Shown here piece by piece: positions 3,986 through 19,291 of a stretch of DNA of 47,428 nt; position 1 is the first letter of the stretch, and each line of letters starts with the position of its first letter. Under the pieces are notes generated by a model. It was not told where the DNA came from and did not search any database. It saw only the letters and a list, made by a program, of their open reading frames with translations. This DNA comes from a virus. Taxonomy: Duplodnaviria; Heunggongvirae; Uroviricota; Caudoviricetes. Location: IMG/VR virus record IMGVR_UViG_2574180238_000003; one strand, 5' to 3'. A program made the translations under genes and the position numbers.

Positions 3986-4174
3986 TTATCCAGCCGGTGT
4001 TTCGTTATTCAGGTACAGCGATACTTTTTTTACCGGGAGGCATTCACCAGAAATTTTTTGCTCGTCTCTTGCCTGGAGGCAGGATTCTTTACTGGCATAA
4101 ATTCCGGTAATCACATTCTGTGATTCACCCGTTATAAGAAAAACCGTCATCACCAGTGCAAATGCTGAAGTCAT
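3986..4174 (-). CDS. Small membrane protein (N-terminal hydrophobic segment), function unknown
   Basis: 62-aa ORF directly downstream of the DicB-like gene with a 4-bp overlap, the position held by ydfD in Qin; hydrophobic N-terminus. Identity not recognised. Confidence 0.4.
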   Translation of the reverse strand: MTSAFALVMTVFLITGESQNVITGIYASKESCLQARDEQKISGECLPVKKVSLYLNNETPAG

Positions 4175-4359
4175 TGACGTTCTCCGAAAATACCAAGTTT
4201 AATAAGGGCAATTCGGGAAAGAATGGAATTATCATTGAGCAGATAAGGCTCATATTTCCGCATATTAATGGCATCCTCAGTAAACGCTTTATTACTGAGC
4301 AGAACACCAATATCAAAACAACCTTCAGACGTATTAACGTTTGGTAATAACGTTTCCAT
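4171..4359 (-). CDS. dicB: DicB-like cell-division inhibitor
   Basis: 62-aa ORF; N-terminus METLLPNVNTSEGCFDIGV...FTEDAIN closely matches the recalled E. coli DicB N-terminus; same length; lies just downstream of a DicF-like sRNA as in Qin. Confidence 0.7.
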   Translation of the reverse strand: METLLPNVNTSEGCFDIGVLLSNKAFTEDAINMRKYEPYLLNDNSILSRIALIKLGIFGERQ

Positions 4360-4534
4360 TATCGCGTCCTCAACAATGAATTTTGTGATGCCGTGCCTGG
4401 TGCCTCCAGGTGACGTTAACCAGTTAACAATTAACGCCGGATTGTTAGTTGATGTCTGTTACGCAAGTAAAAGACCGCTTGTTTTAACTGTTCCGCGTGC
4501 GCATGGCCGCATTCACCGCATCACAAAATTCACT

Positions 4535-4575
4535 TTAAAAAGAGCGGATATCCATTTCCGCCGAATCACCAGAAA
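4535..4575 (-). ncRNA. dicF: DicF-like small RNA with intrinsic terminator
   Basis: Minus-strand sequence tttctggtgattcggcggaaatggatatccgctcttttt: the 5' end matches the recalled DicF 5' end (UUUCUGGUGA), followed by a hairpin (gcgga/tccgc) and U-run. Downstream flank (uuuuuaaagugaauuuugugaug..gugaaugcggc..gcgcacgcggaacag) also matches the recalled dicF-dicB spacer. Ends are approximate. Confidence 0.55.
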
Positions 4576-4912
4576 AGTGATAACAGAGGTTGTTGTGGCT
4601 GGGGGGTCACTTAAGCGTATGGTCAACCTGACAACCCGGTGTCCTCAACGGGGGAAGGAATAACCCCGCCATACTTACCGCCGCGCTATTTCGCGGATTG
4701 CCACAACCGGAAACGCACGGTTGAAGAAATTTAACGACAAGCCTTATATGCAAAGGAATCTCGCCGTGCGCTTTCGTGTTATGCCCTGACTTTTCAGGGA
4801 TATATCCTTTCAGTAAACTGTCAGTGCCGGATTCTTATCCGTGTCCGGCGCACGACCACACGCTGTCACGAGAGGTCTCCATTCTCAACCAGTAACCTCA
4901 ATGGAGGATAAA

Positions 4913-5107
4913 ATGTCAGAGCAGGAGTTAAAACTTGGTGCATGTTATTGTGTTCTCAAGGAGCTGGTACACATGCTTCCATCTACTCAGTATCAACAGT
5001 TAGTTGGCAATTTAAATCAGCGAATCGAAGCTATGTTAAAATCTGATGGTTTTAATAACGTAGAAACGCTGATGCTAAAAAGATATCTTGATGGATTGAT
5101 CAGATAA
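4913..5107 (+). CDS. Hypothetical small protein (64 aa)
   Basis: ATG at 4913 preceded by GGAGGA (4901-4906); ORF MSEQELKLGACY...; convergent with the leftward operon and overlapping the 3' end of the 5075-5434 gene, so it may be spurious. Confidence 0.3.
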   Translation: MSEQELKLGACYCVLKELVHMLPSTQYQQLVGNLNQRIEAMLKSDGFNNVETLMLKRYLDGLIR

Positions 5108-5778: not shown

Positions 5779-5850
5779 ACTATAGGTAATGCCTAATTAA
5801 TTGTCAATAGGCTGCGCCTAATGTTTTTGACGAAAACCTAATAGGCGATG
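5779..5850 (-). promoter_or_regulatory. Leftward early promoter (PL-like) with repressor operator half-sites
   Basis: On the minus strand: TTGACA (5807-5802), 17-bp spacer, TATAGT (5784-5779). The gcctaat / attaggc motif recurs at 5791-5797, 5816-5822 and 5837-5846, the same motif as in the operators between the repressor and cro-like genes. Confidence 0.5.
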
Positions 5851-5917: not shown

Positions 5918-6394
5918 TTAAGTTCCCGTTTTGGTGATGTTCTGGCTTTTCCGTTCTGATTCTTGATCTTTCAAATACTTACCTACCTTCATCTCCATTG
6001 TGGCAATGTAGGCGCGAACGTCATGATCAACCCAACCAGGTTCCGTGGCATTTGCTGATAAGAGAAAAGCCACAATGGCTCTTTTTTCATCAGAGGCGGC
6101 TTGATAAAGGCTGTTTATGTCTAAAAGTTCACTTTTTGTATCTGAAATGAGGGAGGTGGGTATGGGGTATTCGTTAAGCCCCCAATGCTCTGGGCCAACC
6201 ACATCAGAAAAGAAACGCCATAGCTCTGGAAGTTTATCTTTACTTATCGAACCTTTCTTAATCCAATCATAGATTGATGGTGGTTGGACTTTGAAGTGAC
6301 GCGCTACCTCCGCCTTTGATTTGACGGATCCTGATGCAATTTTTTTGTTAATGGCCTGCTCTATCGCTCGGCCTAAGTCTTTACCACTAAGCAT
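5918..6394 (-). CDS. Prophage repressor, RacR-like (XRE/CI-type HTH)
   Basis: 158-aa ORF divergent from a YdaS/YdaT-like pair; N-terminal HTH-like segment (SKAEVARHFKVQPPSIYDWIKKG); same length and context as Rac RacR. Confidence 0.7.
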   Translation of the reverse strand: MLSGKDLGRAIEQAINKKIASGSVKSKAEVARHFKVQPPSIYDWIKKGSISKDKLPELWRFFSDVVGPEHWGLNEYPIPTSLISDTKSELLDINSLYQAASDEKRAIVAFLLSANATEPGWVDHDVRAYIATMEMKVGKYLKDQESERKSQNITKTGT

Positions 6395-6519
6395 TGCTTA
6401 ATACTCTCCTATGCTCATTGCATTAGGCAATCCCTACTTCATTTGCGTTAGGCGACGCCTATTGACATTTGTATTAGGCGTCGCCTAATATTGTTTCGTG
6501 TTTTTTTGGAGTTCATTCG
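6395..6519. promoter_or_regulatory. Divergent promoter/operator region (OR-like) between repressor and cro-like gene
   Basis: Two 15-bp palindromes, ttaggcgacgcctat (6448-6462) and ttaggcgtcgcctaa (6474-6488), plus a half-site cattaggca (6421-6429); rightward promoter TTGACA (6462-6467) with TAATAT (6486-6491) overlapped by the second operator. Confidence 0.65.
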
Positions 6520-10949: not shown

Positions 10950-11159
10950 AAACGGTTTGCGGGGAAAGAAGAGTTAAGTAGAATTGCTGCGGGTGCTTGA
11001 GGCTGTTTGCCTCGGGCATGCCGCCGTAAGGCAGACAGAGAAAAGCCCCAGTTAACATTACGCGTCTTGCAGGACGCTTAACATTAATCTGAGGCCCAAT
11101 CTATGCTTCACAAACGTAGGTTAGCCTCTTACGTGCCGAAAGGCAAGGAGAAGCAGGCT

Positions 11160-11315
11160 ATGAAGCAGCAAAAGGCGATGTTAATCGCCCTGATCGTCAT
11201 CTGTTTAACCGTCATAGTGACGGCACTGGTAACGAGGAAAGACCTCTGCGAGGTACGAATCCGAACCGGCCAGACGGAGGTTGCTGTCTTCGTAGACTAC
11301 GAATCTGAGAAGTAA
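11160..11315 (+). CDS. hokD: Hok/Gef-family type I toxin (HokD/RelF-like)
   Basis: MKQQKAMLIALIVICLTVIVTALVTRKDLCEVRIRTGQTEVAVF... matches the Hok family signature and recalled RelF/HokD; GC hairpin ggcgagggagaaatccctcgcc (11325-11346) just downstream, typical of hok mRNA 3' ends. Confidence 0.85.
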   Translation: MKQQKAMLIALIVICLTVIVTALVTRKDLCEVRIRTGQTEVAVFVDYESEK

Positions 11316-15406: not shown

Positions 15407-15482
15407 GGCCCTTTAGCTCAGTGGTGAGAGCGAGCGACTCATAATCGCCAGGTCGCTGGTTCAAATCCAGCAAGGGCCACCA
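15407..15482 (+). tRNA. tRNA with CAU anticodon (Ile2/lysidine-type, ileZ-like; Met not excluded)
   Basis: 76-nt cloverleaf: acceptor GGCCCTT/AAGGGCC, D-arm GCTC..GAGC, anticodon loop CTCATAA, T-loop GGTTCAAATCC, 3' ACCA encoded; close to recalled E. coli ileX. Confidence 0.85.
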
Positions 15483-15491
15483 TATCACATA

Positions 15492-15568
15492 CCGCCATTA
15501 GCTCATCGGGATAGAGCGCCAGCCTTCGAAGCTGGCTGCGCGGGGTTCGAGTCCTCGATGGCGGTCCA
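15492..15568 (+). tRNA. tRNA-Arg (anticodon UCG)
   Basis: 77-nt cloverleaf: acceptor CCGCCAT/ATGGCGG, anticodon stem CCAGC/GCTGG with loop CTTCGAA, T-arm CGGGG-TTCGAGT-CCTCG, 3' TCCA. Confidence 0.8.
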
Positions 15569-16334: not shown

Positions 16335-16590
16335 TGTGAAGTGTTAAATCCCTCACAATTCAGTAAGTTGACAGTTGCCTGTCAGACTGAGCATTTGTTA
16401 AAAAAATTTCGCATGGTGAATCCCCCTGTGCGGAGGGGCGACTGGTGAACGGTATGATCTCTTTGATGATCGTAAGCGAGAATACGCGGGTTTGGTGTCA
16501 CCGGGCTGAACTCACCGGGAGGCACCCGGCACCATGCTCATGGTGATACAGAAATGCGGCTTCAGCCCCTCTCCGGAGGGGCTTTCTTAT
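16335..16590 (+). repeat. Structured repeat unit 1 of 4 (candidate sRNA)
   Basis: Conserved blocks ttaaatccctcacaattcag, gcatggtgaatccccctgtgcggaggggc, caccgggaggcacccggcaccatgc, and terminator hairpin gcccctctccggaggggc with T-run. Confidence 0.6.
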
Positions 16591-16746
16591 GGACAAAAAA
16601 AGCCCGCGCTGGGAGACGCGGGCGGCAAGGAATAAACAATAAAACGTGAAGTAATACTTCAACTGGCGAATAATACCCGACAGTAATCACTCTGCGCAAT
16701 AGCGTGGCCTTTTTCGAATTGCGGGCTGTAGTCTCCCTTCTGCCGG

Positions 16747-18304: not shown

Positions 18305-18548
18305 TCATGGAAATGTTAAATGACTCACAATTCGGTTGATGGGCTATTGTCTGATCGATGGAAGTCTTGTAAAAACGAGCCAGCATAGTGAATCCCCCTG
18401 TGCGGAGGGGCGTCTGACATGGTCTCCATAGCGATGGTCACAATACGCAGATTCAGTAGTCAGGCTGAATCTACCGGGAGGCACCCGGCACTATGCTGCT
18501 TATGGTGTATACATAGCGATCGGCCCCTCTCCGGAGGGGCTTTTTTTG
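18305..18548 (+). repeat. Structured repeat unit 2 of 4
   Basis: Same block order as unit 1; long-range helix gcatagtg (18383-18390) / cactatgc (18489-18496) carries a compensatory base-pair change relative to unit 1; terminator gcccctctccggaggggc plus T7. Confidence 0.6.
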
Positions 18549-18564
18549 TGCGGGAAAAGGCTGT

Positions 18565-18806
18565 GTTGTTAAGTGTTAAATTCCTCACAGTTCAGATGGT
18601 TGATGCTTGCCTGTCTGAGGGGGCGTTGTTAAAAAAGTTCTGCATGGTGAATCCCCCTGAGCGGAGGGGCATATCAGCGCAGGTGTTTCTACTCTATCCT
18701 TTCTGTGCGGGTTCAGGTGCTGATACTGAACTCATCGGGAGGCACCCGGCATCATGCATATGGTTAACAGACACGTAGCGAAGCCCCTCTCCGGAGGGGC
18801 TTTTTT
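18565..18806 (+). repeat. Structured repeat unit 3 of 4
   Basis: Same blocks; helix gcatggtg / catcatgc (G-U wobble); terminator gcccctctccggaggggc plus T6. Confidence 0.6.
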
Positions 18807-18824
18807 ATGCAGGGAAAAGGCTGT

Positions 18825-19062
18825 GTTGTGAAATGTTAAATTCCTCACAATTCATGAGGTTGATGATTGTCTGATTGATGAGGAGTTTGTTAAAAAAAAC
18901 GGGCATGGTGAATCCCCCTGTGCGGAGGGGTGATATCGTATCATTTCCTGTGTGGCCGACTGATATCACGGACATTTGTTCACCGGGAGGCACCCGGCAC
19001 CATGCAGTATACAGAGATTAGGCATACATCCAGGCTCCTCATCGCAGGAGCCTTTTTACATG
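18825..19062 (+). repeat. Structured repeat unit 4 of 4
   Basis: Same blocks; helix gcatggtg / caccatgc; different terminator sequence (ggctcctcatcgcaggagcc plus T5) in the same position. Confidence 0.6.
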
Positions 19063-19291
19063 TAAAAAAAAAAACGCTCCTGGGAAGAGCGGTTGGCAAG
19101 GAAGCAAGGAATAAATAACAAAACGTGAAGTAATTTATTCAGCACCCTAATAATACCTTAGAGTAATCACATTGCGCAACTGTAAGGGCGTATTTCTTTT
19201 TTGCGGGCTGTTTTTCTGTGTGACTTTTGTGTTTCCGGAGGTCAGCCCGTGCCTTCTCTGACTCAGAACATTATCCCGGCCGGGAGGATTC

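What the first reader, a model, noticed from the sequence alone, without database searches (positions are those of the whole stretch)
3986..4600. DicF-like sRNA plus DicB-like inhibitor: a host cell-division control module in the leftward early operon
The minus strand around 4535-4575 carries a DicF-like sequence with its own terminator hairpin, followed by a DicB-like ORF (4171-4359) and a small membrane protein (3986-4174). In E. coli Qin, DicF represses ftsZ translation and DicB inhibits septation through MinC, and DicB also protects against some phages by inhibiting ManYZ. Their presence under the prophage repressor suggests induction-coupled division arrest or superinfection exclusion.
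Basis: partly seen in the sequence, partly recalled or inferred. Interest (0 to 1): 0.45.

Follow-up and report, generated by a model that had tools for sequence, protein, structure and literature searches.

The report
dicB–ydfD cassette with truncated DicF
This E. coli prophage carries the well-known DicB cell-division inhibitor and a YdfD-like lysis protein under a repressor-controlled early promoter, but its "DicF" is a shortened allele that has lost the part of the RNA known to silence ftsZ, so the module is ordinary apart from that overlooked variant.

Summary
All three features are at the stated coordinates. dicB (4359-4171, minus) is a full-length DicB: Pfam 121 bits, NCBIfam 112 bits, and the same protein as in O157:H7 EDL933. 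The 62-aa neighbour (4174-3986) is a DUF1482 protein, 47% identical to the K-12 lysis protein YdfD.

The DicF-like sequence (4575-4537) sits exactly where dicF lies in Qin, inside near-identical flanks. It keeps only the first 10 nt (UUUCUGGUGA) and a terminator. The canonical 3' stem-loop is replaced by a 6-bp hairpin, so the RNA is 34 nt rather than 53.

Rfam's DicF model does not detect it, even at E<=10 on an 81-nt slice. K-12 and ATCC 25922 controls each score 76.7 bits.

Published mutagenesis places ftsZ and manX pairing in the 3' region, which is absent here. Predicted binding to ftsZ, manX, pykA and xylR is no better than for shuffled RNAs.

The short allele recurs in about 438 of 5426 complete E. 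coli genomes and in E. albertii.

A strong promoter (5807-5779) overlaps two operator-like palindromes. The same motif occurs three times between racR and ydaS, which supports repressor control.

Verdict: a known dicB cassette. Division arrest probably rests on DicB alone, and the DicF claim is only partly right.

The parts
5918..6394 (-). racR-type prophage repressor (CI analogue)
   Evidence: NCBIfam NF049929 RacR equivalog, 245.7 bits against a cutoff of 200. PGAP names the identical locus racR in HY220605.
6423..6488 (.). Three operator-like palindromes (TTAGGCnnnGCCTAA, 25-26 bp apart) between racR and ydaS, overlapping the rightward promoter TTGACA-18-TAATAT (6462-6491)
   Evidence: sites at 6423-6437, 6448-6462 and 6474-6488 with 0-2 mismatches. 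Promoter.
5779..5807 (-). Leftward early promoter, the equivalent of dicBp/PL (TTGACA-17-TATAGT, 11 of 12 matches)
5782..5821 (.). Two operator-like palindromes (5782-5796, 5807-5821) covering the -10 and -35 hexamers of the leftward promoter
   Evidence: all five sites with <=2 mismatches in the 47-kb window lie in this cluster or the 6423-6488 cluster. Also.
4592..4707 (-). Conserved upstream leader with a long-range stem (GUUGUGGC 4707-4700 / GCCACAAC 4599-4592). Candidate RNase III site of the DicF precursor.
   Evidence: Fold. The K-12 partner GCUGCAAC keeps pairing through two G.U wobbles (alignment). The position matches the ~137 nt upstream cut that gives the 190-nt species (PMC10448788). 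Assignment as an RNase III site is inferred.
4537..4575 (-). Short dicF allele: UUUCUGGUGAUUC, then hairpin GGCGGA-AAUGGAUA-UCCGCU, then UUUUU (34 nt plus U tail)
   Evidence: Alignments. Terminator scan. Fold at -8.5 kcal/mol. No Rfam DicF hit. Recurrence.
4380..4529 (-). Structured dicF-dicB spacer, closed by a 12-15 bp stem that ends about 10 nt before the dicB Shine-Dalgarno sequence
   Evidence: -52.4 kcal/mol, z = -4.3, 0 of 200 shuffles as stable. The ends are identical in K-12. Weak STnc100-like match at 25.3 bits.
4171..4359 (-). dicB, 62-aa cell-division inhibitor
   Evidence: Pfam 121.4 bits, NCBIfam 112.2 bits, 65% identity to K-12 DicB over 55 aa. In the 99.9%-identical HY220605 locus the product is RefSeq WP_000449168.1, the accession also annotated in EDL933.
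3986..4174 (-). ydfD-like gene (DUF1482), start overlapping the dicB stop. Hydrophobic N-terminus.
   Evidence: Pfam PF07358 59.7 bits, phrog_1092 117 bits, 47% identity to K-12 YdfD 'lysis protein'.

Best explanation
The locus is a Qin-type dicB-ydfD host-takeover cassette in the leftward early operon of a Rac-immunity (RacR/YdaS/YdaT) lambdoid prophage of E. coli. When RacR leaves its operators, transcription from the promoter at 5807-5779 runs leftward. It passes decayed ydfA-like genes, a conserved structured leader, the short dicF-like terminator and a structured spacer, then enters dicB, ydfD-like, exo, xis and int. By homology, DicB binds MinC and takes it to the septal ring through ZipA, which blocks division. 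Through the same MinC interaction it also shuts ManYZ, the inner-membrane entry route of lambda-like phages. The YdfD homolog is a potential lysis factor acting as an IspG inhibitor. The 'DicF' here is a 34-nt allele. It keeps the first 10 nt and a weaker intrinsic terminator but has lost the 3' stem-loop that pairs with ftsZ and manX. It most likely acts as a partial terminator and processing site that meters read-through into dicB, with at most residual 5'-seed activity. It is unlikely to be an ftsZ antisense RNA. Shown here: sequence identities, family memberships, the missing domain, the promoter and operator motifs, and the recurrence of the allele. Inferred: transcription, RacR control, processing, and all protein activities.
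For: DicB and DUF1482 family matches come, and identities to the K-12 proteins. Gene order matches K-12 Qin and EDL933. Alignment shows the 5' 10 nt intact and the 3' stem-loop replaced. Rfam DicF is negative with positive controls at 76.7 bits, and eight other short-allele loci are also negative. The literature places ftsZ and manX pairing in the 3' region of DicF and xylR pairing in the 5' end. Cofold binding energies for the canonical RNA are ftsZ -15.1, xylR -15.4 and manX -20.2 kcal/mol. For the short allele they are -5.7, -8.0 and -6.5 kcal/mol, all within the range of shuffled sequences. The hairpin plus U-run is a terminator-like site at -8.5 kcal/mol, against -15.9 for the canonical one. 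Promoter and operator palindromes come, and RacR equivalog status. In K-12, transcripts either end at dicF or read through to ydfD. DicB's MinC, ZipA and ManYZ mechanism is described in PMC6832061 and the YdfD-IspG link in PMC8835842.
Against: There are no expression data for this locus. The 7 bp left of the xylR pairing (nt 4-10) could still support weak regulation. The C-terminal half of this DicB allele differs from the K-12 protein that was tested experimentally, so MinC binding is assumed rather than shown. Two upstream genes of the operon are decayed, and an opposite-strand gene (4913-5107) converges on the transcript. Both could lower expression. RacR binding to the palindromes is inferred only from their distribution.
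Confidence: 0.7

Rival explanations
1. One reading: the element is a working DicF that represses ftsZ translation alongside DicB.
For: It occupies the orthologous position, has the identical 5' decamer and has its own terminator.
Against: The 3' region that pairs with the ftsZ ribosome-binding site is absent, including the CUCCG complement of the Shine-Dalgarno sequence at nt 32-36. Predicted ftsZ binding is -5.7 kcal/mol, weaker than the shuffled mean of -9.7. Rfam is negative.
Confidence: 0.06
2. The short allele is a functional trans-acting sRNA with a changed target set. On this view it is a 'seed-only' DicF that keeps some 5'-end targets or gains new ones and has been uncoupled from ftsZ and manX. 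It would be one of at least three alleles with interchangeable 3' domains.
For: The allele is present in about 438 of 5426 complete E. coli genomes and in E. albertii, in different flank backgrounds. A third allele with yet another loop exists. The upstream processing leader is conserved. A hairpin plus U tail is the usual Hfq-binding module (general knowledge). Seven base pairs of the xylR site remain.
Against: Predicted binding to all four validated targets is within the shuffle range. Variation in the hairpin is slight and includes one change that breaks a pair (L098), so there is no covariation support. A 13-nt free 5' end is short. No transcript evidence was found in the searchable literature.
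Confidence: 0.25
3. The whole leftward cassette is a decaying, effectively silent remnant, and the short dicF is a neutral scar left by recombination.
For: The ydfA-like gene has an internal stop, the phrog_2151 gene is truncated, and an opposite-strand gene is inserted. The terminator is weak.
Against: dicB, ydfD-like, exo, xis and int are all intact ORFs with full-length profile matches. The promoter matches 11 of 12 consensus positions and carries paired operators. The same dicB/ydfD proteins are conserved unchanged in distant strains.
Confidence: 0.12

Closest known systems
dicBF operon of the Qin cryptic prophage, E. coli K-12 (ydfABC-dicF-dicB-ydfDE)
   Same: Same gene order, and near-identical non-coding flanks around dicF and upstream of dicB. 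DicB and YdfD are homologs. The operon lies downstream of the immunity repressor and is driven by a repressor-controlled promoter.
   Different: dicF is 34 nt rather than 53 and lacks the ftsZ/manX-pairing stem-loop. DicB is only 65% identical, with a divergent C-terminal half, and YdfD only 47%. The repressor is RacR-type, not DicA. The ydfA-C equivalents are decayed or replaced. The prophage still has exo, xis and int.
Prophage copy in E. coli O157:H7 EDL933 (NZ_CP008957, about 2.802 Mb) and in 400-plus other E. coli genomes
   Same: It carries the same short dicF allele (97.9% identity over 96 nt). Its DicB (WP_000449168.1) and DUF1482 protein (WP_000199485.1) carry the same RefSeq accessions as in HY220605, whose locus is 99.9% identical to the window. 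The exonuclease gene downstream is also the same.
   Different: EDL933 has CCGCC rather than CCGCU in the 3' arm, giving a G-C closing pair instead of G.U. Its immunity region is LexA/CI-type rather than RacR. No ncRNA is annotated there.
Kil-type division inhibitors of other lambdoid early-left operons (lambda Kil, Rac KilR)
   Same: They are functional analogues: small early-left-operon products that block FtsZ-ring function on derepression (general knowledge).
   Different: The proteins are unrelated. DicB works through MinC and ZipA rather than directly on FtsZ.

Membership tests
DicF sRNA (Rfam RF00039) | Scores at or above the family gathering threshold (48 bits) with the covariance model | tested here: not met
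   No hit at gathering, at E<=10 in 1.1 kb or at E<=10 in 81 nt. Controls in K-12 and ATCC 25922 score 76.7 bits. Eight other short-allele loci are also negative.
DicF sRNA (Rfam RF00039) | Orthologous position, between the upstream ydf genes and dicB and inside the conserved leader and spacer | tested here: met
   Alignments A1 and A2. Flanks are near-identical for more than 100 nt on both sides, and dicB starts 216 nt downstream.
DicF sRNA (Rfam RF00039) | Single-stranded 5' seed UUUCUGGUGACGUU, used for xylR and pykA | tested here: inconclusive
   The first 10 nt are identical and nt 11-14 differ. xylR pairing falls from 11 bp to 7 bp and from -15.4 to -8.0 kcal/mol, and 23% of shuffles bind as well.
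DicF sRNA (Rfam RF00039) | 3' stem-loop carrying the ftsZ RBS-complementary and manX-complementary residues | tested here: not met
   17+2 nt are deleted and the loop is replaced. The role of the 3' region comes from PMC5069750 and PMC5861419. Predicted ftsZ and manX binding is no better than for shuffles.
DicF sRNA (Rfam RF00039) | Rho-independent terminator forming the 3' end | tested here: met
   A 6-bp stem with 4 G-C pairs followed by CUUUUU. Energy is -8.5 kcal/mol against -15.9 for the canonical hairpin.
DicF sRNA (Rfam RF00039) | [quoted passage not shown] | not testable with these tools
   Only the conserved upstream stem and the near-identical cleavage context can be shown.
DicB (Pfam PF05358 / NCBIfam NF049927) | Full-length profile match above the curated cutoffs, about 62 aa | tested here: met
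   121.4 bits against a cutoff of 27, over 1-62/62. 112.2 bits against a cutoff of 100.
DicB (Pfam PF05358 / NCBIfam NF049927) | Binds MinC and acts through ZipA to block septation, and inhibits ManYZ | not testable with these tools
   Known for K-12 DicB (PMC6832061). This allele is 65% identical, and the differences are concentrated in the C-terminal half.
YdfD / DUF1482 (Pfam PF07358) | Profile match above cutoff and homology to K-12 YdfD | tested here: met
   59.7 bits against a cutoff of 25. 47% identity over 62 aa, E = 1e-20.
YdfD / DUF1482 (Pfam PF07358) | Causes lysis by inhibiting IspG | not testable with these tools
   Reported for K-12 YdfD only (PMC8835842).
RacR repressor (NCBIfam NF049929) | Equivalog-level profile match, divergent from ydaS/ydaT, with repeated operators in the intergenic region | tested here: met
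   245.7 bits against a cutoff of 200. YdaS and YdaT Pfam matches. Three palindromes in the intergenic region.

The most novel reading that the evidence does not exclude
DicF may not be a single sRNA but a modular family. On this reading a conserved 5' seed and processing leader are joined to interchangeable 3' stem-loops: the canonical 53-nt form, a 56-nt form with a different loop, and this 34-nt 'seed-only' form. The short allele would then be an expressed, Hfq-bound sRNA with a target set uncoupled from ftsZ and manX. It would be an unrecognised extra dicF-like regulator in about 8% of E. coli genomes, including O157:H7, and invisible to Rfam-based annotation.
Probability: 0.2. Interest if true: 0.5.

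Novelty: new variant of a known kind. Interest (0 to 1): 0.3.

Why it matters
The cassette itself is textbook prophage biology. The useful correction concerns annotation transfer. A dicB operon does not always carry an ftsZ-silencing DicF. A recurrent short allele, and a third allele, escape the Rfam model and lack the residues that were shown experimentally to pair with ftsZ and manX. Counts of 'dicF copies', for example in EHEC, and functional inferences drawn from synteny may therefore be off. If the short allele is expressed, it is a natural separation-of-function variant for studying which DicF effects come from the 5' seed and which from the 3' domain. It could also show how terminator strength tunes expression of the toxic dicB gene.

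Tried and rejected
- RNAduplex-style pairing without intramolecular structure was not discriminating, because it produced long artificial duplexes. I replaced it with cofold energy differences and shuffles. Even there the canonical DicF-ftsZ value is not separated from shuffles, so the argument about ftsZ rests mainly on the physical absence of the published pairing region.
- The genome contigs pattern scan gave one Actinomycetota MAG hit (L005). It lies in an unrelated GC-rich context and is a chance match.
- ORFs overlapping the element, 4513-4626 (-, 37 aa) and 4268-4663 (+, 131 aa), have no PHROG match. I treat them as spurious.
- The short allele is not a simple deletion of the canonical sequence, because its loop AAUGGAUA has no counterpart there.
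- Two papers are not held: Melson & Kendall 2019 (four EHEC dicF copies) and Faubladier & Bouche 1994 (dicF-like sequences). I therefore could not establish whether the short allele was ever described or counted. Full-text searches for 'dicF-like' and for DicF with 'truncated' and 'O157' found nothing relevant.
- The isolated-phage collection holds no close relative of this 1-kb region. The best match is 87% identical.

Full report
**What is there**

On the minus strand the window reads as follows.

| Feature | Coordinates |
|---|---|
| racR-type repressor | 6394-5918 |
| Strong sigma-70-like promoter | 5807-5779 |
| ydfA-like DUF1391 remnant and truncated phrog_2151 gene | 5598-5075 |
| Conserved non-coding leader | 4900-4576 |
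| DicF-like element | 4575-4537 |
| Structured spacer | 4529-4380 |
| dicB | 4359-4171 |
| DUF1482 gene | 4174-3986 |
| 823-aa exonuclease | 3890-1419 |
| Excisionase and integrase | 1366-1 |

The 1-kb region is 99.9% identical to a prophage next to potC in E. coli HY220605. Parts of it occur in 4643 of 5426 complete E. coli genomes.

**The two proteins**

ORF 4359-4171 is a full-length DicB.
- Pfam PF05358 scores 121.4 bits over 1-62/62.
- NCBIfam NF049927 scores 112.2 bits against a cutoff of 100.
- It is 65% identical to K-12 DicB, with the differences concentrated in the C-terminal half.
- In the 99.9%-identical HY220605 locus the product is WP_000449168.1, the accession also annotated in O157:H7 EDL933.

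ORF 4174-3986 is DUF1482 at 59.7 bits. It is 47% identical to K-12 YdfD, which is annotated as a lysis protein and reported to inhibit IspG (PMC8835842).

The 'small membrane protein' can be named more precisely as a YdfD homolog.

**The DicF-like element**

Alignment with K-12 Qin and ATCC 25922, and with HY220605, EDL933 and E. albertii, shows that 4575-4537 is the positional ortholog of dicF. The flanks are nearly invariant for more than 100 nt on each side.

The RNA itself differs.
- Canonical: UUUCUGGUGACGUUUGGCGGUAUCAGUUUUACUCCGUGACUGCUCUGCCGCCC(U5)
- Window: UUUCUGGUGA--UUCGGCGGAAAUGGAUAU-----------------CCGCUC(U5)

Ten 5' nucleotides and the base of the terminator are kept. Nineteen nucleotides are missing and the loop is unrelated. 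The product would be 34 nt plus a U tail. Its hairpin is a 6-bp stem with an 8-nt loop at -8.5 kcal/mol, against -15.9 for the canonical one.

Rfam's DicF model finds nothing in three searches: the whole window at gathering, 1.1 kb at E<=10 and 81 nt at E<=10. The same model gives 76.7 bits on the K-12 and ATCC 25922 loci. Eight further short-allele loci are also negative.

**Does it still work like DicF?**

Balasubramanian et al. (PMC5069750) showed by mutation and compensatory mutation that the 3' region of DicF pairs with the ftsZ ribosome-binding site. The 5' end pairs with xylR. Azam and Vanderpool (PMC5861419) placed manX pairing in the 3' end as well. That 3' region is what is missing here, including the CUCCG that complements the ftsZ Shine-Dalgarno sequence.

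Cofold binding energies in kcal/mol:

| Target | Canonical | Short allele |
|---|---|---|
| ftsZ | -15.1 | -5.7 |
| xylR | -15.4 | -8.0 |
| manX | -20.2 | -6.5 |
| pykA | -11.5 | -6.1 |

Every short-allele value lies within the distribution for shuffled RNAs. Only 7 bp of the xylR duplex remain.

One caveat applies. The energy test does not separate even canonical DicF-ftsZ from shuffles. The ftsZ conclusion therefore rests mainly on the absence of the mapped residues.

**Is the short allele real and recurrent?**

Yes.
- A 96-nt query centred on it is matched full-length at 95-99% identity in about 438 of 5426 complete E. coli genomes, EDL933 among them.
- The canonical form is in 3974 genomes.
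- An exact-pattern scan of one genome per species found it in E. albertii NBRC 107761, there with K-12-like upstream flanks.
- dicB follows the short allele in 5 of 7 loci long enough to judge.

Variation inside the short hairpin is slight: G.U versus G-C at the closing pair, one C-to-U change that keeps a wobble, one G-to-A change that breaks a pair, and one loop change. It gives no covariation evidence for or against function.

**Regulation and processing context**

The leftward promoter TTGACA-17-TATAGT is overlapped by two 15-bp palindromes of the form TTAGGCnnnGCCTAA, at 5782-5796 and 5807-5821. Three more, spaced 25-26 bp apart, lie between racR and ydaS (6423-6488). No other site with <=2 mismatches exists in the 47-kb window.

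The repressor is a RacR equivalog at 245.7 bits. RacR is the CI analogue of Rac-type prophages and has multiple operators in that intergenic region (PMC11879457).

Upstream of the element, a long-range stem (4707-4700 with 4599-4592) sits about where RNase III cuts the K-12 precursor (PMC10448788). The cluster of substitutions upstream of dicF preserves this stem, turning two G.U wobbles in K-12 into Watson-Crick pairs.

Downstream, the 150-nt spacer folds into a very stable structure (-52.4 kcal/mol, z = -4.3) that ends just before the dicB ribosome-binding site.

In K-12, transcripts either stop at dicF or read through to ydfD. Here the weaker hairpin should allow more read-through. That point is an inference.

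**Most likely mechanism**

On derepression, a leftward transcript delivers DicB. By homology, DicB blocks septation through MinC and ZipA, and inhibits ManYZ through the same MinC interaction (PMC6832061). The transcript also delivers a YdfD-like lysis factor, followed by the recombination and excision genes.

The short dicF element acts chiefly as an attenuator and processing site. ftsZ antisense control is probably lost, so any division arrest rests on DicB.

**Comparison and novelty**

The cassette is a member of the known dicBF operon family. The proteins are already in RefSeq under their proper names.

The short dicF allele fails the family's covariance model and lacks a defining functional domain. 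It should therefore not be filed as DicF proper. It is best described as a truncated variant.

I found no description of it in the searchable literature.

Overall this is an ordinary, already-understood module with one modestly interesting, testable twist.

Noticed in passing
window 16382-16594 and 18354-19063 (+): Four copies of the Rfam family STnc100 (119-172 bits) lie in the late region, three of them in tandem with a ~260-bp period. Each ends in a strong GCCCCUCUCCGGAGGGGC-U terminator. Their role here is unknown.
   Followed up: no
window 4382-4530 (-): The dicF-dicB spacer gives a weak sub-threshold STnc100 match (25.3 bits, E = 0.0033). It shares the closing stem and the CACCnGGAGGCACCnGGCAC hairpin with those late-region elements. 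This hints at a common structured RNA module, possibly an RNase III substrate.
   Followed up: partly
IMG/VR loci L017 and L118: A third dicF allele of 56 nt has a canonical 5' 20 nt but a different loop (GGCGGCAUCUGUUUGCCCAUGAACUGAUGUCCGCC) and is followed by dicB. Rfam DicF misses it at gathering, and its predicted ftsZ and manX pairing is lost while xylR pairing is kept.
   Followed up: partly
window 4913-5107 (+): A conserved 64-aa phage gene (phrog_4987, 164.6 bits, full length) lies on the opposite strand inside the leftward operon. It converges on, and overlaps, the end of a truncated phrog_2151 gene (5446-5075), which matches only the first 112 of 212 profile positions. The ydfA-like DUF1391 gene upstream has an internal stop.
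   Followed up: partly
window 10991-11165 (+): A sok antitoxin RNA (115.8 bits) indicates a hok/sok module in the prophage. The same element is present in several short-allele loci: L004, L025, L034 and L091.
   Followed up: no
window 15407-15565 (+): Two adjacent tRNA genes sit upstream of the late region.
   Followed up: no
window 4606 (minus-strand GTGACCCCCC): One base differs from every one of the 5426 complete E. coli genomes in the 96 nt around the element. The best match is 99.0%, and HY220605 has GTGACACCCC. This is probably a private SNP in the leader.
   Followed up: no
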